Part shown: piece after piece, positions 5,599-50,608 of the stretch
Numbering within the stretch: position 1 is the stretch's first letter
Layout of the letters: every line of letters starts with the position of its first letter
Assembly (NCBI GenBank): GCA_036821485.1
Contig: DAISJM010000001.1
Location: forward strand, 72,320 to 136,319
Length of the DNA: 64,000 nt
Source: Verrucomicrobiota bacterium
GTDB taxonomy: Bacteria; Verrucomicrobiota; Kiritimatiellia; CAIQIC01; JAGNIJ01
Direction of reading: 5' to 3'
The notes under the pieces: model-generated
Told to the model about the DNA's origin: nothing
Database searches by the model: none
What the model saw: the letters and a program-made list of their open reading frames with translations, nothing else
Made by a program: the position numbers and the translations under genes

Positions 5599-5649
5599 TT
5601 TTTCCAACCCTTGGAAAAGACGCAGCACGATTTTCCAAGGGTTGGAAAC
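5598..5649. repeat. Palindromic element copy A (TTTTCCAACCCTTGGAAAA-N12-TTTTCCAAGGGTTGGAAA)
   Basis: A 19-bp arm and its exact reverse complement, separated by 12 nt. It starts at the stop codon of the upstream PLP gene and ends 14 nt before the ygeY RBS. Related copies lie at 19064-19117 and 47278-47328. Confidence 0.8.
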
Positions 5650-35812: not shown

Positions 35813-36035
35813 TACAGCCTCCATTACGCGTTTTACGGATCGGCCAACCCGACCACATGTTATCGGTAACATATTAATGTTTGCCGTGTGGCTGTCAACG
35901 CGAATTGAAGGGCGTTTTTGGCGGGCGTGGAGGGGGCTGTTTTGTTGGGTGGGAGCCCTATCGCAAGGCATTGGAATGAGGTAAGTTGCTCTTCAAGCAG
36001 GATGGGTCGATGGACCCGCATCAGAAGGTTACATC

Positions 36036-39000
36036 ATGAAATCATTCCTCCTCTCGCTGGGTGTGTTCTCCCTTGCGCTCTGTCTTCCCGCACGGGCTGC
36101 GAGCCAGCGATTCCTGGCCACTTCGGGTGATCGCCACAAATTGCGCGTGGACGATCCTGCCGTAGCGTCACAAATTCTCGCCGATGGTGGTCGGCTGATT
36201 GCCGACTACGGGTCTTTCCAGATGATGGAAGCGAATGCGTCGGCTGAGCAGACCTTCGCCGGGTCGGGCAGTGTAGAGAATCGCGATGAGGACAATCGCA
36301 TCCTGTTGAACGCGGGCGAAGTGGACACAACGACGGACGTCGCGAAGTTCACACGCCGGGCTCCGACGCAGTTCGCGGGACGTCGGCTTCATCTTGTCCA
36401 ATTCGCGGGTCCGGTGAAAGCAGAATGGGTGGACGAGTTGGAGAAGGCGGGACTCCAGATTGTCACCTACATTCCGAACAACGCCTACCTGGTGTATGGC
36501 GATGCGGCCGCGCTCGCGGCGGCGGGAGCCTTGGCCTCCAGCCGTCCCTTTGTGCAGTGGGAAGGTTCCTATTCCGCCGACGACAAGATTCAGCCGCGCG
36601 CGCGCAATCGTGACGCGGCGGGGCAGTACCGGATCCTCGGCACCGATCTCTTTGCCATCCAACTGGTGGACGATGACGTGGGCAATGCGGACACCCTGGC
36701 GCTCATCGATTCCATCAAGCTGGCGCCGTTGCGGCACGAGTCGAGGATGATGGGATACCGCAGCTTCGTTGTGCGTCTGCCACCGGACCAGGTGCCGGTC
36801 ATCGCCGAACAGCCGGATGTGGTGTCGATCAACACCTACGTTGAGCCGAAGAAATTCGACGAGCGGCAGGACCAGATTGTTGCCGGCAATTTGAACGCCA
36901 CGGGCAGCTACCCGACCAACGCGGGCTACCTTGCGTGGCTGTACTCGAAGGGCTTCACGCAGGACCAGTTCACCGCGTCGGGCTTCGTGGTGGATGTGAC
37001 CGACAGTGGTGTGGATAACGGCACGAACGCGCCCAATCACTTTGGCCTCTACGTGCTGGGCAACACCGGCCTCGCCAGCCGCGTGGTGTACAACCGGCTT
37101 GAAGGCACGGCGAACTCGGGGAGCACGATCCAGGGCTGCGACGGTCACGGCAATCTCAACTCGCACATCATCAGTGGCTACAACGATGGCAGTACGTTCC
37201 CGCATCTCGATTCCGCAGGCTACCGCTATGGACTTGGTGTTTGCCCGTTTGTGAAAGTCGGCTCGTCGGTCATCTTTGACCCGGACACCTTCACCGACCC
37301 GGACTACGAGGACCTCATCTCCCGAGCCTATCGCGATGGCGCGCGGATCAGCTCCGACAGTTGGGGCGCGGATACGGCCGGCGACTATGACATTGATGCG
37401 CAGCGGTACGATTATCTTGTGCGCGACGCGCAGCCAGCCAGCGCCGCGGTCGCGACGGCTGGCAACCAGGAAATGACGATTGTATTCGCCGCGGGCAATG
37501 CAGGGTCCGGCACCCAGACGGTCGGTTCGCCGGGCACCGCTAAGAATGTCATCACGGTTGGCGCGGCGGAGAATGTCCACTCACATGCGATCACCAACGG
37601 TGGCGCGAGTGCGATTGGCGATGATGGTTGCACGACGCCGGATTCCGAGGCGAACAACGCGAATGATATCGCCAGCTTTTCGAGCCGCGGTCCGTGTTCG
37701 GACCTGCGGAAGAAGCCGGAGATCGTGGCACCCGGCACACACATCACCGGTGGCGTGGCGCAGCAGACGCGCGGGACGACCAACGGCAATGATCTCGCCT
37801 GTTTCGACGGCACGGGCGTGTGCGGTTTGCCGGGTGGCGGGACGGTGGGCAGCAAGTTCAACTTCTTTCCGACGAACTCGGCCCAGCAATTCTGGACGAC
37901 GTCATCCGGCACGAGCCATTCCACTCCGGCCGTGGCGGGTGGTTGTGCGCTGATCCGCCAGTACTTCATCAACCTGGGCCTCAACGCGCCGAGCCCGGCG
38001 ATGGTGAAGGCCTACCTGATGAATGCCGCCCGCTACATGACGGGCACCTCGGCGAACGATACATTGTGGTCGAACAGCCAGGGCATGGGCGGGATGAATC
38101 TCGGCCTCGCGTTCGATGGTACGCCCCGCATTCTGCGCGACCAGCTCACCAACGATTTGTTTACCGCGACGGGCCAGTCGCGACAGTATGTCGGGACGAT
38201 CAGCGACACTGGTAAACCGTTCCGCGTGACGCTGTCCTGGACCGATGCGCCGGGGCCGACCTCGGGCAATGCCTACAAGAACAACCTGGACCTGACGATC
38301 ACGCTGGGTGGGCTGACGTATAAGGGTAACGTCTTCAGCGGCGCCTATTCCACCAACGGTGGTTCGGCGGATGTGCGAAACAATGCCGAGAGCGTCTTCC
38401 TTCGCGCGGGCCAGACCGGCGTCGTGGTGGTCACCGTTACGGCGGCGAACATCAATTCGGACGGCGTGCCGAACTACGGCACAGCGCTCGACCAGGATTT
38501 CGCGCTTGTCGTTTACAACGTCACCGAGGGCGCTTCCAATCTGCCGCCGGTGCTCGCGTCCATTGGGGACAAGTCGGTGGTGACGAACAACCTCCTGTCC
38601 TTCAGTGTCAGCGCCAGCGATCCGTTCGATGGAGATACGGTCTCGCTGTGGGCGACCGGTGTCCCGCCGTGGGCAACCTTCACGGGGGCAACGAATGCCG
38701 TGGGTGTGACGAATACGTTCTCCGGCACGCCGACGTCGACCGGCACCTGGGTCACGACATTCTACGCGGGCGACAAGGACGGCACGAACAGCGAAACGAT
38801 CACGATCAATGCGAAGGCCGGGGGAGCCCTGGATGTGGGTGGCTACAAGGTCAATCAGTTCAACAGTACCCAGACCTACACGATTCCCAGCGGAACCCTG
38901 GTTGAGCAGGGGGGATATCTCGTGCTGGCGCGCAATGTTTCCCAAGCGCAGTTTGAGGCATATTGGGGCGTGACGCTTGGCGCGAACGTGGTCTTTCTGA

Positions 39001-40409
39001 ATTCGAGCAACAAGGTTCCGCAGATCAACGGGTCCGAGCAGTATGAACTCCTGGATGCCTCATCCACCCTGATCGACGGCCGCACAGCCACGAACTTGGT
39101 CACCGTCAACATGGCGAATCAGCGCGTCAGCACAACGGCCGATGAGACACTGCTGACCAGTTGGAATACGGTGGCCATGGCGTCGGCAACTCCCGGCAGC
39201 GGTGCCGTGGCGGGGGGCGGGGCCGGGTTGGTCATCACTGAATTTTCGGATGCCGGCGCGTTTTCGAACGAGTTTGTCGAACTCTATAACGACAGCGGTG
39301 CCCCGGTGAACACACCGCCGGTGCTGAACGCCATCGGCAATCGGTCCGTGGTGGTGAGCAATACGCTGGAGTTTGCCGTGTCGGCGACGCCGACGGAGAG
39401 CGATGCCGTGACGTTGACGGTGAGCAATGCGCCGGCGGGCACCTACTTCAGCGCGGCGGGTGAGAGCGGCGTGTTCTACTGGACGAACGCGTCACCGGTC
39501 GGCGTCTACACGACCACGTTCTATGCGGCGGACATTGGAGGCGTGGACTTTGAGCAGATACTGATCAGCGTGGTGGCGGCGGGTGGTGGTGGCGGCGGCG
39601 GCACGGAGACGTTCAGCAACTCGACAGCGCCGGCGGCCACCTATGGCAGCGGCAGTTATGTCGGCGATGGCAGCATTCAGTGGACCTACAGTGGCGCGCG
39701 CACGCCGGAGTCGCTCTACTCGATCGATGGCACTTCGCTTGGCTTTGGCGATTCCACGCGCAACCCGCGGGAAGTCTACTCGTCGACGATTCCCGGCGGT
39801 GTCGGCAGCATCGCGATCAAGTACCTTAAGTATTTCACGGGCGCGGGGACGCGGAGCTTCGACGTCTACGTCAACGCGACGCTTGTGGGTTCGGTGTCGG
39901 ATGCGAACAACGCGACGGTGGCCACGCAGACGTTCAGCGCGATCAACATCAGCGGCGACGTGGTGATCAAGGTGGTCGGTACCGGCGGCAAGCAATTCGT
40001 CATCGATACGCTGAACTGGACCAGCTACGCGGGTGGCGGGGATGATTCCGATTTCGACAACATGCCGGACACGTGGGAGCAGGACAACTTCGGCACGTTG
40101 ACCAACACGGCAACCGGCGACTGGGATGGGGACGGTCTGGACAATCTTTCCGAGTATATTTCCGGCACGCAGCCGACCAACGATCAGTCGTATCTGCAGT
40201 TTGAGACCATCTCGATCCAGCCATCGGTGGGCATGCAGTTTGCGACCGTCACCGGCCGCACGTACTGGGTTGATTTCCGTACCAATCTGCTGTCGGGCGA
40301 CTGGACGAGCCTGATTTCTGGACTGATCGGCAGCAACGACGTGCGAACCGTCAGCGACACCAATGAGATTGAGCACCGGGCCTATCGCCTGGGTGTCCAA
40401 AGAAACTGA
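36036..40409 (+). CDS. Giant secreted subtilisin-like serine peptidase (S8) with He_PIG (Ig-like), lamin-tail and TSP3-like repeat domains and a conserved C-terminal beta-domain
   Basis: 1457 aa with signal peptide. The Asp/His/Ser triad sits in VVDVTDSGVDNG, HGNLNSHII and GTSHSTPAVAG. The lamin-tail (LTD) motif is LVITEF...EFVELYN. PPVL..IG(D/N)(K/R)SV He_PIG units occur twice. D-x-D Ca-binding repeats are DSDFDNMPDTWE. The C-terminus is FATVTGRTYWV...YRLGVQRN. Confidence 0.8.
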   Translation: MKSFLLSLGVFSLALCLPARAASQRFLATSGDRHKLRVDDPAVASQILADGGRLIADYGSFQMMEANASAEQTFAGSGSVENRDEDNRILLNAGEVDTTTDVAKFTRRAPTQFAGRRLHLVQFAGPVKAEWVDELEKAGLQIVTYIPNNAYLVYGDAAALAAAGALASSRPFVQWEGSYSADDKIQPRARNRDAAGQYRILGTDLFAIQLVDDDVGNADTLALIDSIKLAPLRHESRMMGYRSFVVRLPPDQVPVIAEQPDVVSINTYVEPKKFDERQDQIVAGNLNATGSYPTNAGYLAWLYSKGFTQDQFTASGFVVDVTDSGVDNGTNAPNHFGLYVLGNTGLASRVVYNRLEGTANSGSTIQGCDGHGNLNSHIISGYNDGSTFPHLDSAGYRYGLGVCPFVKVGSSVIFDPDTFTDPDYEDLISRAYRDGARISSDSWGADTAGDYDIDAQRYDYLVRDAQPASAAVATAGNQEMTIVFAAGNAGSGTQTVGSPGTAKNVITVGAAENVHSHAITNGGASAIGDDGCTTPDSEANNANDIASFSSRGPCSDLRKKPEIVAPGTHITGGVAQQTRGTTNGNDLACFDGTGVCGLPGGGTVGSKFNFFPTNSAQQFWTTSSGTSHSTPAVAGGCALIRQYFINLGLNAPSPAMVKAYLMNAARYMTGTSANDTLWSNSQGMGGMNLGLAFDGTPRILRDQLTNDLFTATGQSRQYVGTISDTGKPFRVTLSWTDAPGPTSGNAYKNNLDLTITLGGLTYKGNVFSGAYSTNGGSADVRNNAESVFLRAGQTGVVVVTVTAANINSDGVPNYGTALDQDFALVVYNVTEGASNLPPVLASIGDKSVVTNNLLSFSVSASDPFDGDTVSLWATGVPPWATFTGATNAVGVTNTFSGTPTSTGTWVTTFYAGDKDGTNSETITINAKAGGALDVGGYKVNQFNSTQTYTIPSGTLVEQGGYLVLARNVSQAQFEAYWGVTLGANVVFLNSSNKVPQINGSEQYELLDASSTLIDGRTATNLVTVNMANQRVSTTADETLLTSWNTVAMASATPGSGAVAGGGAGLVITEFSDAGAFSNEFVELYNDSGAPVNTPPVLNAIGNRSVVVSNTLEFAVSATPTESDAVTLTVSNAPAGTYFSAAGESGVFYWTNASPVGVYTTTFYAADIGGVDFEQILISVVAAGGGGGGGTETFSNSTAPAATYGSGSYVGDGSIQWTYSGARTPESLYSIDGTSLGFGDSTRNPREVYSSTIPGGVGSIAIKYLKYFTGAGTRSFDVYVNATLVGSVSDANNATVATQTFSAINISGDVVIKVVGTGGKQFVIDTLNWTSYAGGGDDSDFDNMPDTWEQDNFGTLTNTATGDWDGDGLDNLSEYISGTQPTNDQSYLQFETISIQPSVGMQFATVTGRTYWVDFRTNLLSGDWTSLISGLIGSNDVRTVSDTNEIEHRAYRLGVQRN

Positions 40410-40472
40410 CGTGTGGGGAGCCTCTATCCCTGCAGCCACCGCCCCGGTACGTTATTCCTCCGGGGAGGAAGG

Positions 40473-43400
40473 ATGCGCGGGCGCTACATGGTCTTGGGTT
40501 GTGTGCTGCTGGCTACCGGGCTTGTCGGGACGGCGCGGGCACAAGTCCGCACGTTGACCGGATCCTCTTTCTCCGTCGACGACGCGGGCATGGTGCGTAC
40601 GCTCGAAGTTGCGACCGATGAAATTGCCGTTCGCCGTTCCGGCGGAACCTGCACCGTCGAAAAGGTGGGGCCCTTCGCCGACGCAGAATCCATCCGTCGT
40701 TCCGCGCTGGCCCGCAAGCAGCTTGCCGACGAGGAGGTCGACCTGGTGCTGTACGAGCCCGGCGTGCCCCGGACGATCTACACGCGGCGCATCCTGACCC
40801 GTGGCGTGCTGGTTCGGTTGGACGCCGGCGCCAACCTTGCCGATGTCGAAGAGGAGTCTGGCGCGGTCGGCCGATGGGCGCCCGGCGGCGGAGGTTGGCT
40901 CATCTTCGATGCCGCGGACGCGGGGGGAGCGTTGATCTTGGCCGACACGCTGCGCGGGGTGAAGGGCGTCGCTTCCGCCGACCCTCTGCTGGCGCGGCAG
41001 CATGAGAAGCGCTACACACCGAACGACACGCTATTCAGTGATCAGTGGCACCTCGTCAACACCGGCCAGATCGGTGGCACGCCGGGCATCGACGTAAACG
41101 TCACGAATGTGTGGGACACGTATCGCGGCTCCGGTGTCTACATCGGCATCTGCGATGACGGCTTGCAGACATCGCACGAGGATCTTTCGGCCAACGTCAA
41201 CACCATCATCGACTGGGACTGGAACGGCGGCGACGGCAGTCCGGATCCCAACACCGCGCAGGACTTTCACGGCTCCGCGTGCGCGGGCGTGGCGGCAGGC
41301 CGCGGGAACAATGCGTTGGGCATCTGCGGCGGTGCGCCGCAGGCAACCCTCGTCGGCATGCGCTTGATTGCCGGCTATGTCGATGATGCCACCGAGGCTC
41401 AGGCGATGCTGCACAGCAACACGATTATCTGGATCAAGAGCAACAGTTGGGGGCCGGTCGACAACGGCTACACGCTTGCCGGGCCCGGTTCAGTGACCCG
41501 GGCCGCGCTTTCCAACGGGGTGCACAACGGGCGGGGTGGAAAGGGGACGATCTACCTGTGGGCGGGCGGCAATGGCCTGCAGTACAACGACAATGTCAAC
41601 TACGACGGCTACGCCAATTCGGTTTACACGATCGCCATCGCTGCGCTCGACAACACGGGGGGGCAGTCCTACTACAGCGAGCCCGGGGCGTGCCTGCTGG
41701 TCACCGCCCCGTCGAGTGGAAGCAACGGGGGTATCACGACTACGGATTTGATGGGAAGCTCCGGCTACAACAGTGGCGCCGGTTGGGATCTCGCCGATCC
41801 CAACTACACGGCCTACTTTGGCGGCACATCTTCCGCGACGCCGCTGGTTGCCGGGATCATGGCGTTGATCCTGCAGGCCAACACCAACCTCGGCTGGCGC
41901 GATGCCCAGGAGATCCTGATCCGTTGCGCCCGGCAGGTCAGTCCGTCGGACAGCGACTGGTCCACGAACAGCGCGGGTTTTCACTTCAACCACAAGTTCG
42001 GCGCCGGCCTGATTGATGCCCGTGCTGCGGTCACGCTGGCGGAGACATGGACCAATCTCGGGCCGCGGCTCTGGTACGAAAGCACGCACACCAATCTGGC
42101 GCAGGCCATACCGGACAACAATACAAACGGTACGACCGTGAGTTTTGTGATCAGCGCCACGAATATGAGGGTGGAGCACGTCGCAGCCACGGTGTACATC
42201 ACGCACCCCGCGCGCGGGAATCTCGCGATTACGCTCACCTCGCCGAGCGGCATGAAGAGCCGGCTGGCTGAAAAGCACAGCGATCTGTCGGCCGACTACC
42301 CGAACTGGACCTTCACCAGCGTGCGGCACTGGGGCGAGGAACTGCAGGGCGCGTGGACGTTGAATGTGGCGGATCGCACGGCTGGCGCCATCGGCACGCT
42401 GCAATCCGTTCGCCTGGATTTCTTCGGCACCGATACGGAGATTCCCTCCAACAGGCCGCCGGTGCTCAGCCGTCTCAGCGACCGGTCCGTTGCGGAAAGC
42501 AACCTGTTGGAGTTCGCCGTGTCCGCGTGGGATACGGTGGATGGCGACACGGTGACGTTATGGGCCACGAACGTGCCGGAGTGGGCCAGTTTTCCGGCCG
42601 TGACCAACGACATTGTCGTGACGAATCTGTTCTCCGGCACGCCCACCAATCCTGAAATGCGCACGGTGTATTTCTTTGCTTCTGACAAGGACGGCACCAG
42701 TACATCGGCTGTGAACATCACGGTCCGGCAGGCGGGCGACAGCGGTTGCGGATTCATCATCTCGGAGTACCTGGAGGGAACCAACGCCACGGCCAAGGCG
42801 CTTGAATTCTTCAATGGCACGGCCTCCGGCATCGATCTCAAATCCAGCAACTGTGTGGTACAGATCTATCTCAACGGGAGCAGCACACCCGGTTCGCCGA
42901 TCAGCCTCACGGGTACGGTGGCGGCGGGGGCCACCTATGTGGTTGCGCATTCCAGCGCCCCCACGGGCCTGACCGCGCGCGCCAACCAATTGGCGAGTCT
43001 GAGCGCGATCGGCGGAGACGATGCCGTGGTCGTAAGGTTTGGGGGGACGAATGGTCCGATCCTGGACCGTGTCGGACAGGTGGGCGTCGATCCGGGTGTT
43101 GAGTGGGGCTCGGGCTCGTACTCCACGTTGAACAACACGTTGCGGCGCAACCCGTCGGTGACGATGGGGGATACCAACGCGTACAGCGCCTTCGACCCCA
43201 CGCTGGAATGGCAGGGCTATGGACCGGACATCTTCGTCGGCTTCGGCGAACACATGATGAATTGCGAGGGCGCGGAGTCGCCACCGATTCTCAATCCGAT
43301 CGGCAACACAGCGACCGAGGTCGGCAGTCTGCTGGAGTTCACGGTCAGCGCGGAGTCGACCGGTGGCGATGTCGTGTCCCTGTCGGCCAGCAATCTGCCG

Positions 43401-44426
43401 CAGGGGGCTACCTTCACATCGAGCAATGAGACCGGCGTGTTCCGGTTCACCCCCACGCCTTCGCAAATGGGCACGCACTCGGTGGGCTTCTACGCATCGG
43501 ACAACGACGGTGTTGATACGGAGACGATCGAGATCAGCGTCTCGGCGCCGCAGGGCGGGGGATCATCCAACGTGTTGGTCTATTTCGATTTCGATGACGG
43601 TGCAAATTTCGAACCGGTTCCGGAATCCGTGGTGCAGCACCTGCAGGTCAGTGCGTTTGAGAGCCGTGATGGAAAATCCACCAATGCCATCGGCAATCCC
43701 GGCCGGGCCATTGCGGACAGCGGATGGACGGGCACGGTTCAGTACTTTGAGTTCACGGTTAATGTGGAGACCGGCTACACCATGGCCGCGGACGGGATGA
43801 CCTTCGACGACCTGCGGTCCTCGACGGGGCCGTTGGGTTGGCGTGTGCGGTACAGCGGAGATGGCTACGGCGCCGACCTCTCGCTGGCGGGCACGCACTC
43901 GTCTTACACGACGAACGTCCCGACCTTGTTCATGCCCGCGGTGACCGGCCAGGTGACGTTCCGGGTTTATGCGGACAACGCCAGCATGGCGGGCGCGACG
44001 TGGCGACTGGACAATGTGAAGCTGCGCGGAGCGGTGTATCTGACCTCTGAGGGGAATGACAGCGACGAAGACGGCATGTCGGACGATTGGGAAACGGCGC
44101 AGTTCGGATCGTTGACCAACGAAGCGGCAGGTGATTGGGACGAGGATGGTGTGGACAATCTGTCGGAGTACATCGCCGGGACCGAGCCGACGAACAACGG
44201 GTCGTACCTGCAGTTTGATGACATCCTGACGCCGGGCGGATTCCAGGTCCGGTTCGCGACGGTGACGGGCCGCACGTATTGGGTGGAATACGCCGAGGAC
44301 CTGCTATGGCCGGGCGCGTGGAGCAATCTGGCGACGGGCCTTTTGGGTAGTAATGATGTGCGTTCGGTGAGCGACACCAACGCCTCCGGCGGGCGAATTT
44401 ATCGCGTGGGCGTGCAGAGGAATTGA
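40473..44426 (+). CDS. Giant secreted kexin/furin-like subtilase (S8B) with P-domain, LTD, He_PIG units, TSP3-like repeats and the same C-terminal beta-domain
   Basis: Start at MRGRYMVLGCVLLATGLVGTARA after a GGGGAGGAAGG RBS. Catalytic motifs are GICDDG, HGSACAGVAAG and GGTSSATPLVAG. The P-domain reads YITHPARGNLAITLTSPSG. The C-terminal 120 aa are ~70% identical to the preceding protein. Confidence 0.8.
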   Translation: MRGRYMVLGCVLLATGLVGTARAQVRTLTGSSFSVDDAGMVRTLEVATDEIAVRRSGGTCTVEKVGPFADAESIRRSALARKQLADEEVDLVLYEPGVPRTIYTRRILTRGVLVRLDAGANLADVEEESGAVGRWAPGGGGWLIFDAADAGGALILADTLRGVKGVASADPLLARQHEKRYTPNDTLFSDQWHLVNTGQIGGTPGIDVNVTNVWDTYRGSGVYIGICDDGLQTSHEDLSANVNTIIDWDWNGGDGSPDPNTAQDFHGSACAGVAAGRGNNALGICGGAPQATLVGMRLIAGYVDDATEAQAMLHSNTIIWIKSNSWGPVDNGYTLAGPGSVTRAALSNGVHNGRGGKGTIYLWAGGNGLQYNDNVNYDGYANSVYTIAIAALDNTGGQSYYSEPGACLLVTAPSSGSNGGITTTDLMGSSGYNSGAGWDLADPNYTAYFGGTSSATPLVAGIMALILQANTNLGWRDAQEILIRCARQVSPSDSDWSTNSAGFHFNHKFGAGLIDARAAVTLAETWTNLGPRLWYESTHTNLAQAIPDNNTNGTTVSFVISATNMRVEHVAATVYITHPARGNLAITLTSPSGMKSRLAEKHSDLSADYPNWTFTSVRHWGEELQGAWTLNVADRTAGAIGTLQSVRLDFFGTDTEIPSNRPPVLSRLSDRSVAESNLLEFAVSAWDTVDGDTVTLWATNVPEWASFPAVTNDIVVTNLFSGTPTNPEMRTVYFFASDKDGTSTSAVNITVRQAGDSGCGFIISEYLEGTNATAKALEFFNGTASGIDLKSSNCVVQIYLNGSSTPGSPISLTGTVAAGATYVVAHSSAPTGLTARANQLASLSAIGGDDAVVVRFGGTNGPILDRVGQVGVDPGVEWGSGSYSTLNNTLRRNPSVTMGDTNAYSAFDPTLEWQGYGPDIFVGFGEHMMNCEGAESPPILNPIGNTATEVGSLLEFTVSAESTGGDVVSLSASNLPQGATFTSSNETGVFRFTPTPSQMGTHSVGFYASDNDGVDTETIEISVSAPQGGGSSNVLVYFDFDDGANFEPVPESVVQHLQVSAFESRDGKSTNAIGNPGRAIADSGWTGTVQYFEFTVNVETGYTMAADGMTFDDLRSSTGPLGWRVRYSGDGYGADLSLAGTHSSYTTNVPTLFMPAVTGQVTFRVYADNASMAGATWRLDNVKLRGAVYLTSEGNDSDEDGMSDDWETAQFGSLTNEAAGDWDEDGVDNLSEYIAGTEPTNNGSYLQFDDILTPGGFQVRFATVTGRTYWVEYAEDLLWPGAWSNLATGLLGSNDVRSVSDTNASGGRIYRVGVQRN

Positions 44427-44480
44427 CCCCTCTTGACGTTCCGGCATGAAACGAATAATGTCGCCCTCGCTTCAACGGAC

Positions 44481-44556
44481 GCCCCCATCGTCTAGAGGCC
44501 TAGGACGCCAGGTTCTCATCCTGGTAACACCGGTTCGAATCCGGTTGGGGGTGCCA
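44481..44556 (+). tRNA. tRNA-Glu (anticodon CUC)
   Basis: Cloverleaf: acceptor GCCCCCA / UGGGGGU, D-arm UCGUCUAGAGGCCUAGGAC (the tRNA-Glu hallmark), anticodon stem CCAGG / CCUGG with loop UUCUCAU, T-arm ACCGG-UUCGAAU-CCGGU, and an encoded CCA. Confidence 0.85.
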
Positions 44557-44693
44557 GGCACCAGAGTTCCTCGCGGGGCTCGGAACACGGTGCCTGGCAG
44601 GCCAGATCCACACGTCAACGACCCCAAGAGGAACTCTGGGGCCTGCGCCGGTCACCGTGTTCGAGGCGAAGCCGAGAACTCGGGTGACCGGGC
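44551..44693 (+). other. Interleaved inverted-repeat cluster immediately 3' of tRNA-Glu (structured RNA or recombination/att-like site)
   Basis: Four arm pairs in the order A B C A' B' D C' D': GCCAGGCACC/GGTGCCTGGC, CAGAGTTCCTC/GAGGAACTCTG, GAACACGGTG/CACCGTGTTC and GCCGGTCACC/GGTGACCGG. Arm A overlaps the tRNA 3' end. Confidence 0.5.
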
Positions 44694-44722
44694 CATATCC
44701 TTCTGATAGCTTCTCGATCCTC

Positions 44723-44998
44723 ATGACAGGAACTCTTCCATACACCGTCTACATCCTCCTCAGCGAAAAGGACGGCAACTTCTACGTGGGTTTCACAACG
44801 GACTTGGCGAAGAGACTTTCAGATCACACCGCGGGCAGAGTTGAATCCACAGCACCTCGCCGGCCATTCAAGTTGGTTCACGCGGAGCAATATCTTTCCG
44901 AGGCAGATGCGATTCGAAGGGAGAAGTACCTCAAGACCACCAAGGGACGCCGTGCCCTCCGCCTCATGCTTCGCGATGCAGCCGGCAATTCTTCATGA
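44723..44998 (+). CDS. GIY-YIG nuclease-domain protein (small, stand-alone)
   Basis: ~91 aa from MTGTLPYTVYILLSEKDGNFYVGFTTDLAKRLSDH. The GIY...YVG and R..H motifs are present. Confidence 0.65.
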   Translation: MTGTLPYTVYILLSEKDGNFYVGFTTDLAKRLSDHTAGRVESTAPRRPFKLVHAEQYLSEADAIRREKYLKTTKGRRALRLMLRDAAGNSS

Positions 44999-46057
44999 TT
45001 TGAGCGAGGCCATGTCGATGACGAATCGATAGCGCACGTCCTGCTTGAGCATCCGTTCGTAGGCATCGTTGATCTTCTGGATCGGAATGAGCTCGATGTC
45101 CGAAACGATTCTGTGCGCAGCACAGAAATCCAACATCTCCTGCGTCTCCGCGATTCCACCAATGCACGAGCCGGCGAAACTGCGGCGCGGAAGCAGCAGA
45201 TTGAAGACATTCACCGGAAGCGGCTGCGATGGCGCGCCCACCTGCACGAGCGTACCGTCCAATTGCAGCAGGCCCAAGTAGGCATTGATGTCGTGCTGTG
45301 CGGAAACGGCGTCGAGGATGAAATTGAAACTGCCGTACTGTTTCTTCATCGCGTCGGCATCTTTGGACACAACGACTTCATGAGCGCCCAACCGCAAACC
45401 GTCGGCGGCCTTACCCGGCGACGTGGTGAACAGGACGACGTGCGCGCCGAAGGCGCGTGCGAATTTCAATGCCATGTGTCCCAGCCCGCCGAGCCCCACG
45501 ACGCCGACCTTCTGGCCGGGGCCGACCTTCCAGTGGCGCAACGGCGAGTAGGTTGTGATGCCGGCGCAGAGCAGGGGAGCGGCGGCGGCCAGATCCAGCC
45601 CGGCCGGCACGCGCAGCACAAACGCCTCGTCCACAACAATGCTCGTGGAATACCCGCCGAACGTGTGCCCGCCCAGGTGCTTGTCGGGGCTGTTGTACGT
45701 GAAGGTGGCGAACGAGTGGCAGTATTGTTCCAACCCCGCCTGGCAACTCGGGCAGGTGCGGCACGAGTCCACCATGCAGCCGACCGCACTCAGGTCTCCG
45801 GGTTTGAACTTCGTGACGCGCGGGCCGACCCGCTTGACGCGACCAACAATTTCGTGGCCGGGCACGCAGGGATAGGCGGTGGCCATGACGGCGCTCCACT
45901 CGTCGCGGACCGTATGGAGATCGGAGTGACAGACTCCGCAGTACAGGATTTCGATTTCGACATCGAGATCGCCGGGCTCGCGTCGGTTGATCCCAAACGG
46001 AGCCAAGGGCGAAGACGCGGTTTGTGCAGCGTAGGCTTTGGCGTGTGTAGTTTTCAT
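44993..46057 (-). CDS. Zn-dependent NAD(P) alcohol dehydrogenase (cinnamyl-ADH-like)
   Basis: Start at MKTTHAKAY. Catalytic and structural Zn sites are GVCHSDLH, GHEIVG and CRTCPSCQAG, with the GxGxxG Rossmann motif in VGVVGLGGLGHMA. Confidence 0.85.
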   Translation of the reverse strand: MKTTHAKAYAAQTASSPLAPFGINRREPGDLDVEIEILYCGVCHSDLHTVRDEWSAVMATAYPCVPGHEIVGRVKRVGPRVTKFKPGDLSAVGCMVDSCRTCPSCQAGLEQYCHSFATFTYNSPDKHLGGHTFGGYSTSIVVDEAFVLRVPAGLDLAAAAPLLCAGITTYSPLRHWKVGPGQKVGVVGLGGLGHMALKFARAFGAHVVLFTTSPGKAADGLRLGAHEVVVSKDADAMKKQYGSFNFILDAVSAQHDINAYLGLLQLDGTLVQVGAPSQPLPVNVFNLLLPRRSFAGSCIGGIAETQEMLDFCAAHRIVSDIELIPIQKINDAYERMLKQDVRYRFVIDMASLKS

Positions 46058-46241
46058 GCCCTTAACATAACCCCGACTCATGCTTTGTCACCAGCAGAAC
46101 ACGCCAATCAACTTGCCGAATACGCCATCGGTCTGCAGCGTCCAGATTGGGCGCCGGAAGGCTTGGATTCCCTGCGTGTCCGGCCTTGCGCGAACACGCG
46201 GCAGGCTTCCATCCCGGTCCCCAATCTGCGATCTTGGGCCC

Positions 46242-47258
46242 ATGATTTCGGTCTATGATCTCGACGGGTTGGAAGCGCTCGTCAGCCGTCTGGGGATTCC
46301 AGAACCGGCGCTGAGACGGTTCCGAATCGCCTATTTCAAAAAGGGGCGATCCGTGGACGAGTGTCTCGATGCGATCCCCGAAACAGCGCGGGCACGGTTT
46401 GTCGCCGGGGTGCGACTGGACCAGCTCGAACTCGTTGAGCGGCACGACTCGAAAAGGGACGGGGCGTCGAAATTGGTTTTCCGCACCGCATTGAACGAGC
46501 GGGTTGAAGCCGTTCTCCTTCGCGTCGCTTCCGGCCGGACCAGCCTCTGCATTTCTTCGCAGATCGGTTGCGCTGCGGATTGCGCATTCTGTGCGACGGG
46601 ACGGATGGGTCTCGTACGCAATCTCTCGACCGCTGAAATCCTCGATCAAATTATTCTCGCCATGCGTGTGCTCCGCGCGGAAGAGCGCGTGCTGCGGAAT
46701 GTGGTGTTCATGGGCATGGGGGAGCCATTCCACAACGAGAAGGCGGTATGTGACAGCCTCGAAGTTCTGCGCGATGTGCGCGGCTGCAATCTGTCCGAGC
46801 GGCATTTGCTCGTCTCCACGGCAGGCGTGCCCAAGTCGATGCTGCGCTTCGTGGAGCGGTTCCCAAAGATCCGCGTGGCGCTCAGCCTGCACAGCGCGCG
46901 GCAGGAAGTCCGGGAACGAATCATGCCCATCGCATCGCATCATTCGCTGAAGCAGTGGTGCAACAGTCTCCCGGAGCTCGCCCGTCACGGGAACCTGATG
47001 ATCGAGATCCTGCTGTTGCAGGGCGTGAACGACGGACCGGCGGACCTGGCTGCACTGATCGACTACCTGCACGGCTTGCCCGTGCACATCAATCTCATCC
47101 AGTTCAATCCGTTCCCCGGCAGCGGATTCGAGCCGGTGCCCCGCGCGGCGCGCGAGGCCTTTGGCGTCGCGCTGCGGAAGGCCGGGTTCAAGGTGACGCT
47201 GCGGTATTCCCTCGGCGACGATATCGCCGCGGCCTGCGGGCAACTGGCGGGAGTCTGA
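46242..47258 (+). CDS. rlmN: Radical-SAM 23S rRNA/tRNA adenine-C2 methyltransferase RlmN
   Basis: 338 aa. CxxxCxxC in SQIGCAADCAFCATG; GMGEP; the C-terminus reads SLGDDIAAACGQLAGV. Confidence 0.85.
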   Translation: MISVYDLDGLEALVSRLGIPEPALRRFRIAYFKKGRSVDECLDAIPETARARFVAGVRLDQLELVERHDSKRDGASKLVFRTALNERVEAVLLRVASGRTSLCISSQIGCAADCAFCATGRMGLVRNLSTAEILDQIILAMRVLRAEERVLRNVVFMGMGEPFHNEKAVCDSLEVLRDVRGCNLSERHLLVSTAGVPKSMLRFVERFPKIRVALSLHSARQEVRERIMPIASHHSLKQWCNSLPELARHGNLMIEILLLQGVNDGPADLAALIDYLHGLPVHINLIQFNPFPGSGFEPVPRAAREAFGVALRKAGFKVTLRYSLGDDIAAACGQLAGV

Positions 47259-47277
47259 GCGCGCCGTGGGCGGCCAG

Positions 47278-47328
47278 ATTTTCCAACCCTTGGAAAATCG
47301 AGCGCTATTTTTTCCAAGGGTTGGAAAA
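47278..47328. repeat. Palindromic element copy B (TTTTCCAACCCTTGGAAAA-N12-TTTTCCAAGGGTTGGAAAAA) between convergent rlmN and the antiporter gene
   Basis: The arms are identical to copy A (5598-5649); only the 12-nt spacer differs. Confidence 0.8.
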
Positions 47329-47350
47329 ATGGGATTCACCCGCCATTCGC

Positions 47351-48568
47351 TTACGCGATCTCGCCAGCCTTCTTCAGGGCGATCTCGGCGGCGATGGGGC
47401 CGATGATTTCGTGAATGACCGTGGCGCCGATGACGATGCCCACCACGCTGTCCGAGATGGATGCAAACGCGGGGTTGGCCTTGATCATCAGGGCCAGACC
47501 AATGACGATCCCGCCCTGTGGCAGAAGACCGAGAGCGGTGTACTTCTTCACGTTGGGCGAGGCGTGCGAGACGAACGCGCCGAATGTGGCGCCAGCGCCC
47601 TTGCCGATCGCGCGGAACACCACGAACAGTGCAACAAAGAGAAGAGAACTGCGAAGCGTCGCGAAGTTGAGTTGCATTCCGCTGAGGGTGAAGAAGAGGA
47701 CAAAGATAAGCTCTTCCGTATACCGCTCGAGCATGCGGAAGATGATCTCCTGGTTCGGATTGAAATTCACAACGATGACCCCCATGGTCATCGTCGCCAG
47801 CAGCTCGTCGACCTTGAGGACTGTGGCGAGGCCGAAACACAGCGAGAGAAGCGCGAACACGAGGACGATGAACGCGCCCTCGGTGTCCCGTTTCATGAAC
47901 CGCGCGAGCTGGTTGAACAGCCACCCGAACGCCGCGCCGGTCAGAACGCCACCAACGATCGACACCGCGGGAGCGACTACGGCGCCGCCCGGGGCGAATC
48001 CCGTGTGCGCAAGCAGGATTCTCGCCGCGGCAACCGCCAGGCTGTAGTTGATGATGCCGAAAACATCGTCAAACGCGGCGACTCCCATGATCGTCGACGA
48101 CACGTCGCCCTTGGCGTGGTACTCGTGGGACACGGCAAGTGTCGCTGACGGGTCGGTCGGCGAGGCGAGGCATCCGAGGAGAATGCCAAGCGGGAGAATT
48201 TTTCCCGCCCACGCCGCGGTCGACCCATGCCCCACAAACGGCGCAAGCGCAAGGAAGCCAAGAACGACGGCCAGCAGGGCAAACTCTGCCTCAAACACCG
48301 TGATCCAGAGAATAGTCTTTCCCAGCTTCTTCAGCCTGCCGGCGAGAAGGGTGCCGCCAACAGAAAACGTGATGAACGAGAGCGCAACATTGGTGATCAG
48401 GTCTGTGTGCGTGGTGAAATCCTGCGGGATCAGGGGAAGCAGCCTGGGATTGATGCAGATGCCGGCAAGGATGTAGCCGGTGACTTTGGGAAGCTTCACC
48501 AACTGCGCCAGTTCGCCGAATAGAAAGCCCGTGATGATCACGAGGCCAACGATGAGAATCGGATTCAT
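47351..48568 (-). CDS. Cation:proton antiporter (CPA/KefB-like Na+/H+ exchanger)
   Basis: Start trimmed to MNPILIVGLVIITGFLFGELAQLVKLPKVTGYILAGI (ATG at 48568). ~405 aa with 11-12 TM helices. Confidence 0.8.
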   Translation of the reverse strand: MNPILIVGLVIITGFLFGELAQLVKLPKVTGYILAGICINPRLLPLIPQDFTTHTDLITNVALSFITFSVGGTLLAGRLKKLGKTILWITVFEAEFALLAVVLGFLALAPFVGHGSTAAWAGKILPLGILLGCLASPTDPSATLAVSHEYHAKGDVSSTIMGVAAFDDVFGIINYSLAVAAARILLAHTGFAPGGAVVAPAVSIVGGVLTGAAFGWLFNQLARFMKRDTEGAFIVLVFALLSLCFGLATVLKVDELLATMTMGVIVVNFNPNQEIIFRMLERYTEELIFVLFFTLSGMQLNFATLRSSLLFVALFVVFRAIGKGAGATFGAFVSHASPNVKKYTALGLLPQGGIVIGLALMIKANPAFASISDSVVGIVIGATVIHEIIGPIAAEIALKKAGEIA

Positions 48569-48725
48569 GGTGCCATGACTTCTCCGCCGCAGAAGACAGG
48601 TTGACCGAAGGATAAGGGAGTCCGCTCGGCGGGCACAAGAACGTTTCCCGCGTTGTCCCATTACAACATTTATGAAACGCGGTCGTTGTCGGGGAAGAAT
48701 GGCGCCGGAGGTGGCAGGTGAGTGG

Positions 48726-48879
48726 GTCGAGGCCATCCTTCTTCGCGTCGCTTCCGACCGAGCCAGCCTCTGTATTTCTTTGCAAATCGGCTGCGCTGCG
48801 GAAAGTCGGGTTCAACGTGACGCTGCGGTATTCCCTCGGCGACGATATCGCCGCGGCCTGCGGGCAGCTGGCCGGCTGA
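48726..48879 (+). pseudogene. Internally deleted, 5'-truncated pseudo-copy of rlmN
   Basis: 48726-48805 matches rlmN 46498-46580 (..VEAILLRVASDRASLCISLQIGCAA). It is joined at a shared GCGCTGCGGA microhomology to a match of rlmN 47177-47258 (GFNVTLRYSLGDDIAAACGQLAG*). It is ~90% identical to rlmN, with no intact ORF. Confidence 0.75.
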
Positions 48880-48894
48880 GCCGCCCAAGACGGC

Positions 48895-49884
48895 CTAGTG
48901 ATGGGTTTGAATCCCCTTGCCGACTTCGGCCAGGATATCCACGCAGGGCTGGGGGATCACGCCGTCGGCCGTCGGGCCGACATTCAGCAGGTAGTTGCCG
49001 CCCCGGCTTGTGCAGGCGGTGAGATTGCTGGTGATAGTGGCGGCTGATTTCCAGTTCTGGTCGTGTGAGTTGTAGCCCCAGTGATCGTTCATCGTCATGC
49101 ACGATTCCCAGGCCCCTTCGGGCGGCGTGTCGGGAATCGTCTGTTCGGGCGTGACGTAATCAAACGATCCGGGAAACTTGCTCGCGCGGTCGTTGACGAT
49201 GATGTCCGGTTTGAGCGAACGGACATGCCGCACCACCTCATCGCCTTCCTCCCAGCTCCAGCCGTCCCAGCCGCCGTCGAACCAGATCAGGTCCGGCTGG
49301 TAGGCGGCGATCAGTTCGCCGAGCTGGCCCTTGGCGTACTCGACATATCGCTTCCTGTCGGGGGCGCCTGTGGCCACATCGTTCCATGCGCGGCGGTTGT
49401 TCCAGTCCGGGTGATGCCAGTCCATGAGCGAGTAGTAGATCCCGAATCGCAACCCCTGTTTCCGGCACTCGGCGGCCAGCTCGCCGAGCAGATCGCGTCC
49501 CGCGAACGGAGTCCGCGCGATGTTCCAGTCGGTGAGTTTTGAGTTCCAGAGGCAGAAGCCATCGTGGTGCTTGCTCGTGATGACGAGGTACTTCATGCCG
49601 GCTTTTTTCGCCACGCTCACCCACGTGGCTGCGTCGAACTCCCGGGGGTTGAACTGCTTCGCCAGCTCCTCGTATTGTGAGACCGGCATCTTCGTTTCAT
49701 CGAGAATCCACTCGCCGTAATGGGTCTTGCCCTCCCATTCGCCGGCGGGGACCGAGTAGACGCCCAGGTGGATGAACATGCCGAAGCGCGCTTCGTGGAA
49801 CCACGCCATTTGGTCGGCCGCGACGGCGGACCACACGCAGGATAGAAAGGCAAGGGCGGTCAGTTCACACAGAAGGCTTCTCAT
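48895..49884 (-). CDS. Alpha-L-fucosidase (GH29 catalytic domain), secreted
   Basis: Signal peptide MRSLLCELTALAFLSCVWSAVAA. The GH29 motifs are YLVITSKHHDGFCLWNS and WFDGGW. Confidence 0.8.
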   Translation of the reverse strand: MRSLLCELTALAFLSCVWSAVAADQMAWFHEARFGMFIHLGVYSVPAGEWEGKTHYGEWILDETKMPVSQYEELAKQFNPREFDAATWVSVAKKAGMKYLVITSKHHDGFCLWNSKLTDWNIARTPFAGRDLLGELAAECRKQGLRFGIYYSLMDWHHPDWNNRRAWNDVATGAPDRKRYVEYAKGQLGELIAAYQPDLIWFDGGWDGWSWEEGDEVVRHVRSLKPDIIVNDRASKFPGSFDYVTPEQTIPDTPPEGAWESCMTMNDHWGYNSHDQNWKSAATITSNLTACTSRGGNYLLNVGPTADGVIPQPCVDILAEVGKGIQTHH

Positions 49885-49928
49885 GATGGCTCCTCCCGGG
49901 AACTATGTTGTTCCCATTCCGTCCGATG

Positions 49929-50324
49929 TCAATGAAACGCGGGCGGGAGGGGACGGGTGCGGCGGCGGTAGAGGGCGGCGAGCCCGACCGCGAGCAGGGC
50001 GAGGATGCTGGGCTCAGGAATGGCCTGCAGCACAAAGACCTCGCCGCTCGCGGCGTCGAATCCGCCGGCGTAGATGCCGGTGATGTTGGTCGAGGTGAAC
50101 GAGCCCGAGTAGCCGCCGGCCGTGAAAACCTGGAACCGCTGGCCGTTCGTCGGCGTGAAGCTGAACGCGATGTTCAGCGTGCCGCCATAGTTGATCGTGT
50201 CCGCTGTGACCTGGTCGTATTCCGATGCGCTGGCGCCGTAGAGTTCGATCAGGGTTTCCGCGTACTGCTCCAGCGTCAGCGAGCCGGCCTCTTGGGTAGG
50301 GCGCGACCGCTGGGCGCGCCGCTT
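49929..50324 (-). pseudogene. Start-less C-terminal remnant of a PEP-CTERM protein
   Basis: The frame is open from a TGA at 50325 to the stop at 49929 and ends ...VFVLQAIPEPSILALLAVGLAALYRRRTRPLPPAFH*. It has no ATG/GTG/TTG start. Its upstream side is the 50290-50470 repeat block. Confidence 0.5.
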
Positions 50325-50470
50325 TCAGTAGAGCCGGGTCTATCCCGGCTACGATACCGGGGTAAAGCTGGTGCGCCGAATTGGCCGTGGCGAAAGCGGG
50401 GCCGCGGCCCCACCCCAATGACTCGGATTCAGAAGGTAGGGCGGGGGCCTCCGGCCCCGCCGCGGACGCA
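50290..50470. repeat. Composite short-repeat block (hairpins plus a GGGGTAAAGCTGGTGCGCCGAATTGGCC motif)
   Basis: Shares three motifs with 58627-59366: GGTAAAGYTGGTKCGCCGAATT at 50359-50386, GTAGGGCGCG..GCGCGCCGCT, and GTAGAGCCGGG..GGCTACGA. The palindrome GGGGCCGCGGCCCC is also present. Confidence 0.6.
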
Positions 50471-50608
50471 AGGTGGCGAGCGGGTGAAGTCGCCACGTCG
50501 GGGGCTGTACCGCCAACCGGGATCGCACACCACTGAACGGCCGGCTTGACGAGCGCGCGTAATGATCATATGTTCATAACCGATCAGACGTCAGAAAGGA
50601 ATCCGACG

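What the first reader, a model, noticed from the sequence alone, without database searches (positions are those of the whole stretch)
46242..48879. rlmN pseudo-copy created by microhomology-mediated internal deletion, 1.4 kb downstream of intact rlmN
154 bp at 48726-48879 are ~90% identical to two separate segments of rlmN: the radical-SAM Cys-motif region and the last 80 nt including the stop. The two segments are joined exactly at a GCGCTGCGGA decamer that occurs in both places in the intact gene.

Between the gene and its remnant lie palindromic element copy B and an oppositely oriented antiporter gene. This is a clear scar of duplication followed by illegitimate recombination, and possibly of insertion of the palindrome-plus-antiporter segment.
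Basis: seen in the sequence. Interest (0 to 1): 0.55.

Follow-up and report, generated by a model that had tools for sequence, protein, structure and literature searches.

The report
Decaying rlmN gene fragment beside antiporter
A 160-base dead fragment of the rRNA-methyltransferase gene rlmN lies 1.4 kb downstream of the working copy in a Kiritimatiellia genome; it is an ordinary scar of DNA rearrangement, not a new kind of element.

Summary
Window 48720-48802 matches rlmN 46497-46579 (70/83). Window 48793-48875 matches rlmN 47169-47251 (78/83). The two blocks are fused at GCGCTGCGGA, the only repeated 10-mer in the intact gene. This implies a 599-bp frameshifting deletion.

The fragment is identical in 11 independently assembled contigs, so it is not an assembly artefact.

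Using six related rlmN genes to assign each change to a lineage:
- Ten changes are specific to the remnant. They are spread over all codon positions, eight are G:C to A:T, and seven hit invariant residues. This is neutral decay.
- Changes on the intact-gene lineage are all third-position and synonymous.

In the nearest lineage (fucosidase 94% identical) the alcohol dehydrogenase gene abuts the fucosidase, and rlmN, hairpin, antiporter and remnant are all absent. The whole ~2.75-kb block is therefore an insertion in a hypervariable intergenic spot.

The antiporter's nearest homologue outside this species is only 72% identical. How the second partial copy arose is unresolved: duplication-insertion in place, or one-sided homologous capture of incoming DNA.

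There is no sign of function. This is an ordinary gene relic of low interest.

The parts
44993..46081 (-). Zinc-type alcohol dehydrogenase gene, the left flank of the variable spot. Homology to the sister lineage and to the other haplotype of this species stops at 46131/46132.
   Evidence: Pfam ADH_N and ADH_zinc_N. BLAST break at 46131/2 against L096 and L002.
46132..48885 (.). Block of about 2.75 kb that the nearest lineage lacks. It holds a spacer, rlmN, the hairpin, the antiporter gene and the rlmN remnant. The sister lineage has an unrelated 122-nt spacer here.
   Evidence: No residual similarity between the spacers.
46242..47258 (+). Intact RlmN/Cfr-family radical SAM methyltransferase gene (338 aa), the parent-type copy.
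   Evidence: Pfam Radical_SAM. NCBIfam TIGR00048 RlmN scores 254 bits, below its 290 cut-off. Source records name it RlmN.
46497..46579 (+). Parent segment 1 (codons 86-113), ending at the first Cys of CxxxCxxC.
46570..46579 (+). Upstream copy of the decamer GCGCTGCGGA.
   Evidence: the only repeated 10-mer in the gene.
47169..47178 (+). Downstream copy of the decamer GCGCTGCGGA, 599 nt from the first.
47169..47258 (+). Parent segment 2 (last 30 codons including the stop). Positions 47193-47242 are a 50-nt perfect match to remnant 48817-48866.
47279..47328 (.). Perfect 19-bp palindromic hairpin flanked by T/A runs, between the convergent rlmN and antiporter genes. It looks like a bidirectional terminator and belongs to a repeat family with three copies in the window.
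   Evidence: Fold of -43.2 kcal/mol, z = -4.3.
47351..48571 (-). Cation/proton antiporter gene (Na_H_Exchanger), the cargo between the two rlmN copies. Its nearest homologue outside this species is 72% identical.
48572..48719 (.). 148-nt spacer upstream of the antiporter with no detectable homology to rlmN or to its upstream region.
48720..48802 (+). Remnant block 1, 70/83 identical to 46497-46579. It carries eight remnant-specific changes.
48793..48802 (+). Deletion junction: the single retained copy of GCGCTGCGGA. The join shifts the reading frame because 599 is not a multiple of 3.
48793..48879 (+). Remnant block 2 with the stop codon. It keeps the ancestral-type terminus CTGGCCGGCTGA, identical to that of relative L095.
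48895..49884 (-). Short GH29 alpha-L-fucosidase gene (329 aa), the right flank. Homology to the sister lineage resumes at about 48885-48888. The sister's gene runs 15 codons further.

Best explanation
The 160-nt stretch 48720-48879 is a non-functional, neutrally decaying relic of a second, partial rlmN copy.

Shown:
1. It consists of rlmN codons 86-113 fused to the last 29 codons. The join is at the gene's only 10-nt direct repeat, which implies a 599-bp frameshifting deletion. This is the signature of slipped-strand, short-homology-dependent illegitimate recombination.
2. It has no start codon of its own in the rlmN frame, and it has lost two of the three cluster cysteines.
3. Its own substitutions are evenly spread over codon positions, mostly G:C to A:T, and hit residues that are invariant in the family. 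The intact gene changed only at synonymous third positions.
4. The block rlmN-hairpin-antiporter-remnant is absent from the nearest lineages, where the dehydrogenase gene abuts the fucosidase gene. The block was therefore inserted at a hypervariable intergenic spot.
5. The arrangement is fixed and invariant in every available strain of the species.

Inferred: the partial copy (codon ~86 to the natural stop, with the ancestral terminus) was left behind when the hairpin-plus-antiporter segment became joined to the last two codons of the working rlmN. This happened either by a duplication-insertion in place or by one-sided homologous capture of incoming DNA that displaced the 3' part of the resident gene. 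Once redundant, the copy was shortened by the microhomology deletion and has drifted about 6% since.
For: - Homology and junction.
- Frameshift and loss of motif. No Pfam hit for the mechanical 116-aa ORF.
- Invariant residues hit (R to W, G to D, T to A, S to L, A to V, K to N).
- Changes assigned to lineages: ten are remnant-specific at codon positions 3/3/4, and eight of the ten are G:C to A:T. The five to eight intact-lineage changes are all at position 3. Fisher p = 0.03; third-position excess overall p = 0.004.
- The remnant groups with the window's own rlmN and L108 rather than with more distant relatives.
- It keeps the ancestral terminus, whereas the intact copy ends in a novel GGGAGTCTGA next to the hairpin.
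- The block is absent in the sister lineage and in the outgroup.
- The arrangement is fixed and 100% identical in 11 contigs.
- No Rfam match, promoter or terminator signal, or structure signal in the remnant.
Against: - No pre-deletion allele (a full or longer second copy) and no antiporter-free haplotype was found. The order of events is therefore inferred, not observed.
- A 160-nt useless fragment that survives long enough to accumulate about 6% neutral change, and is invariant in all strains, is somewhat long-lived given the deletion bias of bacteria. However, strain diversity is too low (0.2-0.6%) for the invariance to mean anything.
- Block 2 is better preserved than block 1 (5 against 13 differences, p = 0.08). 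This could hint at gene conversion or constraint, or be chance.
- The counts are small: 18 differences in all.
Confidence: 0.8

Rival explanations
1. Duplication-insertion in place. rlmN was already at this site. A single illegitimate event, or a tandem partial duplication of codons ~86-336 that captured filler DNA, placed the hairpin and antiporter between the end of one copy and codon 86 of the next. The second copy then lost 599 bp at the decamer.
For: - The remnant is closest to the window's own rlmN.
- The remnant keeps the native terminus and 3' flank, while the intact copy's last codons are novel. This fits a junction inside the last two codons.
- The hairpin belongs to a repeat family native to this genome.
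Against: - It needs rlmN to have arrived at this spot first, as a separate event, because the sister and outgroup lineages lack it.
- The intact lineage carries more synonymous change (5-7 in about 43 synonymous sites) than the remnant's neutral rate (about 6% per site) predicts. The excess is marginal.
- No intermediate was observed.
Confidence: 0.4
2. One-sided homologous capture (homology-facilitated illegitimate recombination, or allele-carrying incoming DNA). DNA from a related strain carrying rlmN-hairpin-antiporter recombined homologously in or upstream of the 5' part of the resident rlmN and joined illegitimately at codon ~86. The resident 3' part was left as the remnant. On this reading the remnant and the intact gene are alleles from different lineages, not sister duplicates.
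For: - The antiporter has no close relative in the clade (72% next best, against 85-94% for its neighbours), so it looks foreign.
- Homologous exchange of diverged rlmN alleles at this locus is directly visible. L108 differs by 4.6% across 46214-46959 but by 0.4% from 46960 on.
- Identity to the sister lineage is mosaic: 95% at the fucosidase, 86% at the dehydrogenase, 79% at the peptidase.
- There is an excess of synonymous differences.
- The mechanism is documented in naturally transformable bacteria (PMC2884548, discussion and its refs 67-69).
Against: - No donor arrangement was found. None of the antiporter's relatives has rlmN next to it.
- The hairpin next to the supposedly incoming gene belongs to a family seen only in this species among the loci fetched.
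- The remnant still groups with the window's allele.
Confidence: 0.3
3. Degenerate site-specific integrative element that targets the 3' part of rlmN, in the manner of e14 in E. coli icd. There the element supplies a replacement 3' end and the displaced host fragment (icdC) remains at the far end.
For: - The topology is the same: intact gene, cargo, displaced 3' fragment.
- A 50-nt perfect direct repeat (47193-47242 and 48817-48866) could be an att core.
- The analogy is described in PMC13626634.
Against: - No integrase, recombinase or any phage gene lies in the insert, which holds only the antiporter.
- The duplicated span would be about 760 nt, far longer than usual att duplications.
- No empty site with an intact rlmN exists in relatives; they lack rlmN at this locus entirely.
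- No excised haplotype was found among 23 contigs.
Confidence: 0.05
4. The fragment is retained because it does something. Examples would be promoter or operator DNA for the antiporter, a terminator for the fucosidase transcript, a small protein, or a recombination handle that allows reversible loss of the antiporter.
For: - It is fixed and invariant in all strains.
- It has persisted through about 6% neutral divergence.
- The 50-nt perfect repeat flanking the antiporter could support RecA-dependent excision.
Against: - Its substitutions are random with respect to codon position and are G:C to A:T biased.
- No structure signal on either strand, z = 0.03 and 0.06.
- No Rfam hit and no promoter- or terminator-like site.
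- The ORF through it is frameshifted and has no family hit.
- No antiporter-less haplotype was seen.
- Population diversity is too low for the invariance to be informative.
Confidence: 0.04
5. Chance similarity in GC-rich DNA, or an assembly chimera.
For: None beyond the general GC-richness of the region (about 60%).
Against: - E = 1e-17 and 6e-31 within the window.
- The sequence is identical in 11 contigs from different samples and assemblers.
- A 10-nt junction is far shorter than assembler k-mers.
Confidence: 0.01

Closest known systems
Bacterial gene remnants made by short-homology-dependent illegitimate recombination (replication slippage between short direct repeats)
   Same: The deletion end-points lie in a direct repeat of 10 nt, and one repeat copy is kept. 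This is well below the length needed for RecA recombination. The result is a frameshifted, decaying fragment. PMC2884548 discusses this as a significant source of variable segments within bacterial species.
   Different: Nothing essential. Here the deleted gene is a redundant second copy of a housekeeping rRNA methyltransferase, and the pre-deletion allele has not been seen.
icd - e14 prophage - icdC in Escherichia coli K-12
   Same: A working gene is followed by inserted DNA and then by a displaced C-terminal pseudogene fragment of the same gene. The two copies differ mainly by synonymous or conservative changes and can recombine (PMC13626634).
   Different: e14 is a site-specific element with its own integrase and a defined att site, and it excises. 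The insert here has no recombinase. It carries one antiporter gene and a hairpin, shows no excised form, and its remnant also has an internal 599-bp deletion.
Homology-facilitated illegitimate recombination (de Vries and Wackernagel 2002; Prudhomme et al. 2002; cited through PMC2884548)
   Same: It explains foreign cargo joined on one side through a homologous gene and on the other through an illegitimate joint. It fits the mosaic identity and the allele exchange seen at this locus.
   Different: It is a mechanism inferred from topology only. Neither a donor nor competence of this organism is known.
Small variable segments and insertion hotspots of bacterial chromosomes (Touzain et al. 2010, PMC2884548)
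   Same: One intergenic spot shows several alternative contents in close relatives: nothing, rlmN-antiporter, or a 1023-aa protein gene plus rlmN-antiporter. No mobile-element genes are present.
   Different: The contents include a normally conserved housekeeping gene (rlmN). This is unusual for such a hotspot.

Membership tests
Pseudogene / gene remnant | Significant nucleotide homology to a functional parent gene | tested here: met
   70/83 and 78/83 identities; E = 1e-17 and 6e-31 in the 64-kb window.
Pseudogene / gene remnant | Reading frame disrupted (truncation, frameshift, loss of essential motif) | tested here: met
   The first 85 codons and codons 114-309 are missing. The 599-nt deletion shifts the frame. 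Two of the three CxxxCxxC cysteines are lost. The overlapping 116-aa ORF has no Pfam hit.
Pseudogene / gene remnant | Substitution pattern of relaxed constraint compared with the parent | tested here: met
   The ten remnant-specific changes fall at codon positions 3/3/4, and seven are non-synonymous at residues invariant in 21 relatives. Changes on the intact lineage are all at position 3. Fisher p = 0.03.
Short-homology-dependent (slippage) deletion | The junction coincides with a direct repeat present at both parental sites, and one copy is retained | tested here: met
   GCGCTGCGGA at 46570 and 47169, and once at 48793. It is the longest internal repeat of the gene.
Short-homology-dependent (slippage) deletion | The undeleted allele is observed in a relative or in the population | tested here: not met
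   All 23 contigs carrying the fucosidase and all 14 carrying the antiporter have the same 326-nt gap. No longer second copy was found.
Site-specific integrative element in the 3' end of a protein gene (e14/icd type) | Integrase or recombinase gene inside the insert | tested here: not met
   Only a Na_H_Exchanger gene and a hairpin lie between the copies.
Site-specific integrative element in the 3' end of a protein gene (e14/icd type) | Identical core repeats (attL/attR) at both ends | tested here: inconclusive
   A 50-nt perfect repeat exists (47193-47242 and 48817-48866). It lies inside a longer diverged duplication and could simply reflect strong conservation.
Site-specific integrative element in the 3' end of a protein gene (e14/icd type) | Empty site (intact target gene without insert) in relatives | tested here: not met
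   The sister and outgroup lineages lack rlmN at this locus altogether. rlmN of relatives sits in other neighbourhoods, without the antiporter.
Homology-facilitated illegitimate recombination product | One end of the insert lies in homology with a donor, and the other is an illegitimate joint with microhomology | not testable with these tools
   No donor sequence was found. Supporting context only: recombination break-points inside rlmN.
Transposon / MITE / IS-mediated insertion | Transposase, terminal inverted repeats and target-site duplication at the block ends | tested here: not met
   No such genes. No repeats at 46132 and 48885.
RlmN (NCBIfam TIGR00048), for the intact parent gene | Score above the curated equivalog cut-off | tested here: not met
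   254 bits against a cut-off of 290. It is the best-scoring family, ahead of the Cfr models (about 194 bits). Radical_SAM Pfam passes, and source records call it RlmN. It is best described as an RlmN-family enzyme.

The most novel reading that the evidence does not exclude
The 3' end of rlmN might serve in this Kiritimatiellia lineage as a recurrent homologous anchor, or attachment sequence, for capturing cassettes without an integrase at a chromosomal hotspot. On this reading the 50-nt perfect repeat is kept by gene conversion, so that the antiporter can be lost and regained by recombination between the two rlmN ends.
Probability: 0.05. Interest if true: 0.45.

Novelty: new member of a known kind. 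Interest (0 to 1): 0.2.

Why it matters
Mostly it does not; this is an ordinary rearrangement scar. It has three modest uses.
- It is a clean natural example of a deletion that used the longest short repeat available in a gene.
- It gives an internal neutral clock of about 6% G:C to A:T-biased decay, and so a glimpse of the mutation spectrum of an uncultured Kiritimatiellia lineage.
- It marks an intergenic hotspot where even a housekeeping rRNA-modification gene has been relocated together with a probably foreign antiporter.

For annotation, 48720-48879 should be flagged as an rlmN pseudogene fragment and not as coding sequence.

Tried and rejected
- **More homology around the remnant.** I looked for rlmN homology in the 148 nt upstream of the remnant and in the 3' flanks beyond the stop. 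None exceeded shuffles. Two extra codons ('AG' against 'SG' of some relatives) are not significant.
- **Other rlmN pieces in the window.** None.
- **Conserved synteny around rlmN.** I checked GTDB representative genomes (closest 66% aa, and that contig ends after the gene) and relatives at 85-87% identity. Each has different neighbours.
- **A donor arrangement through antiporter relatives.** A metagenome scan, the protein database and the contig of the 72% relative gave no rlmN or hairpin nearby.
- **Trace of the insert in the sister's 122-nt spacer**, which would have indicated a deletion there. None.
- **Haplotypes without the antiporter or with a longer second copy.** None among 23 and 14 contigs.
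- **Functional readings of the remnant.** Rfam, promoter and terminator scans, and folds of both strands were all negative.
- **Base composition.** It does not single out the antiporter.
- **Xenologue origin of the remnant from a distant lineage.** Rejected, because after remnant-specific changes are removed it is nearest to the window's own allele.
Full report
**1. Observation**

The window is contig CAZGBH010000002.1 of a Kiritimatiellia metagenome-assembled genome, GCA_964523715.1.

The intact gene at 46242-47258 encodes a 338-aa radical SAM protein.
- RlmN (TIGR00048) is the best NCBIfam match at 254 bits, below the curated cut-off of 290 and ahead of the Cfr models.
- Source records name it RlmN.

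BLAST and the repeat finder both recover two collinear matches between this gene and 48720-48879.
- 48720-48802 matches 46497-46579 at 70/83.
- 48793-48875 matches 47169-47251 at 78/83, and the match continues to the stop codon at 48877-48879.
- Against the whole window the E-values are 1e-17 and 6e-31. No other rlmN-like piece exists.

The two matches overlap by exactly GCGCTGCGGA.
- In the intact gene this decamer occurs at 46570 and 47169.
- It is the only repeated 10-mer in the gene, and no repeat of 11 nt or more exists.
- Codon-shuffled versions of the gene carry at least one repeated 10-mer 58% of the time. The repeat itself is therefore unremarkable; what matters is that the junction sits on it.

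The implied deletion is 599 nt, which is not a multiple of three, so block 2 is out of frame with block 1. The remnant also lacks codons 1-85 and two of the three cluster cysteines.

The 323-nt spacer holding the remnant is 100% identical in 11 distinct contigs from different samples and assemblers. An assembly artefact is excluded.

**2. What the substitutions say**

Of the 18 differences between the copies, 12 are at third codon positions (p = 0.004). I assigned each change to a lineage using rlmN genes from six relatives: L108 (97% aa), L109, L091, L093 and L095 (85-87%), and L011 (66%).

Ten changes are specific to the remnant.
- They fall at codon positions 1, 2 and 3 in the ratio 3:3:4.
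- Eight are G:C to A:T transitions.
- Seven are non-synonymous and hit residues invariant in 21 family members: R to W, G to D, T to A, S to L, A to V, K to N, plus V to I.

The remaining five to eight differences are all third-position synonymous changes.
- At these sites the remnant keeps the state seen in the outgroups.
- The intact gene, together with its 97% relative L108, carries the derived state.
- The contrast is significant (Fisher p = 0.03).

This is what a neutrally decaying pseudogene beside a selected parent should look like.

The remnant groups with the window's own allele rather than with L109 (five sites against two). It separated before the window/L108 split.

It also keeps the ancestral terminus CTGGCCGGCTGA, identical to L095. 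The intact gene ends in a different GGGAGTCTGA directly before the hairpin. The junction with the downstream cargo therefore lies in the last two codons of the intact copy.

**3. Context and direction of change**

Between the copies lie two features.
- A perfect 19-bp hairpin flanked by T/A runs. It folds at -43 kcal/mol (z = -4.3) and has three family members in the window.
- An opposite-strand Na_H_Exchanger gene.

They do not.
- The closest lineage found through the fucosidase (P0121, 94% aa; L096-L099) has the order S8 peptidases, GIY-YIG, dehydrogenase, fucosidase.
- Homology to the window stops at 46131/2 and resumes at about 48885-48888. An unrelated 122-nt spacer replaces 2.75 kb.
- An outgroup (P0123, 82%; L100-L103) has the fucosidase next to GIY-YIG, with no dehydrogenase and no rlmN.
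- rlmN orthologues 85-87% identical sit in four different, unrelated neighbourhoods, none with an antiporter.
- The antiporter's best hit outside this species, among 5.8 billion proteins, is 72% identical. This compares with 85-94% for its neighbours. None of its relatives has rlmN or the hairpin nearby.

By parsimony, the whole block rlmN-hairpin-antiporter-remnant is an insertion at a spot that has repeatedly accepted DNA.

The same spot is polymorphic within the species. Strains L002-L004, L113, L115, L116 and L108 carry a 3.2-kb segment, with a 1023-aa beta-strand-repeat protein gene, in place of window 46132-46205.

Homologous exchange is active here.
- L108 differs from the window by 4.6% over 46214-46959 but by only 0.4% beyond that point.
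- Identity to the sister lineage is mosaic: 95% at the fucosidase, 86% at the dehydrogenase and 79% at the peptidase.

**4. Mechanism**

Shown:
- A second, partial rlmN copy exists.
- It was shortened by a deletion whose end-points are the gene's longest direct repeat.
- It has evolved without constraint, accumulating about 6% remnant-specific change.
- It lies at the far edge of an inserted block.
- It is fixed in the species.

Inferred: how the partial copy arose. Two models fit.

(a) Duplication-insertion in place. Hairpin-plus-antiporter DNA ended up between the end of one copy (about codon 336) and codon ~86 of the next.

(b) One-sided homologous capture. Incoming DNA carried rlmN-hairpin-antiporter, with an illegitimate joint at codon ~86 of the resident gene, so the remnant is the displaced resident 3' part.

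- Model (b) is favoured by the foreign look of the antiporter, the visible allele exchange and a marginal excess of synonymous divergence.
- Model (a) is favoured by the remnant's affinity to the window's allele and by the hairpin being a native repeat family.
- I cannot separate them with the data available.

A site-specific element like e14 in icd (PMC13626634) shares the topology. It fails on the defining features: there is no integrase, no empty site with an intact rlmN and no excised form.

**5. Function**

There is no support for function.
- No Rfam match and no promoter- or terminator-like site in the remnant.
- Folding energy on either strand equals that of shuffles, z = 0.03 and 0.06.
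- No protein family matches the frameshifted ORF.
- Invariance among strains is uninformative at 0.2-0.6% population diversity.

**6. Verdict**

The object is an ordinary gene relic produced by illegitimate recombination, a new example of a well-known kind. The locally interesting point is that the relic sits inside a small inserted block, including a housekeeping rRNA methyltransferase gene, at a hypervariable intergenic hotspot. Interest is low (0.2).

Noticed in passing
window 5600-5649, 19066-19116, 47279-47328: A family of ~50-nt elements. Each is two copies of the palindrome TTTTCCAA(SSS)TTGGAAAA separated by 12-13 variable nt, forming a perfect 19-bp hairpin flanked by T/A runs. Among 110 loci fetched, it is seen only in this species, apart from one half-site in L012. 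It is probably a bidirectional terminator or a REP-like repeat.
   Followed up: partly
window 47243-47349 compared with L002 and L004: Strains L002 and L004 have 10 differences clustered in about 107 nt around the hairpin (about 9%), against about 0.2% elsewhere in the 2.6-kb region. This suggests local replacement or conversion of the hairpin element.
   Followed up: no
window 46132-46205; L002 1468-4700: Presence/absence polymorphism within the species. A 3.2-kb segment with a 1023-aa gene replaces a 74-nt spacer between the dehydrogenase gene and rlmN in many strains. The gene's only family hit is a weak autotransporter beta-strand repeat. The left break (46131/2) coincides with the break against the sister lineage. 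L002 and the sister share about 12 more nt, so the window's version looks derived.
   Followed up: partly
window 48895-49884: The GH29 fucosidase is unusually short: 329 aa, with its four nearest relatives at 332-347 aa. All other hits at 64% identity or below are roughly 350-580 aa, nearly all above 400 aa. It therefore seems to lack the usual C-terminal domain. Compared with the sister (344 aa), the window's gene stops 15 codons early (GAG to TAG) and its last ~8 residues are diverged, right at the edge of the inserted block.
   Followed up: partly
window 46214-46959 compared with L108: The rlmN allele of contig L108 (97% aa) differs by 4.6% over the 5' 70% of the gene, yet by only 0.4% over the 3' end, hairpin and antiporter. 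This marks a homologous recombination break-point near 46960 inside a housekeeping gene.
   Followed up: partly
window 40003-50289 compared with L096: Identity to the sister lineage is mosaic: 79% at the S8 peptidase, 86% at the dehydrogenase and 95% at the fucosidase plus the first 120 codons of the next gene. Homology ends abruptly at 50289, inside the 214-aa ORF (49905-50549). This suggests further exchange break-points.
   Followed up: no
window 47351-48571: The cation/proton antiporter has no homologue above 72% identity outside this species in the 5.8-billion-protein collection. Its best named hits come from Sedimentisphaerales and Omnitrophica genomes. It is probably horizontally acquired, although base composition does not mark it (GC 0.58-0.65).
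   Followed up: partly
window ~36000-44426 (L001 1-8185): Two large tandem paralogous S8 subtilase genes (about 1457 and 1317-1337 aa), each with P-domain, LTD and Big_9 modules, lie upstream. They are followed by a small GIY-YIG gene that overlaps the end of the dehydrogenase gene.
   Followed up: no
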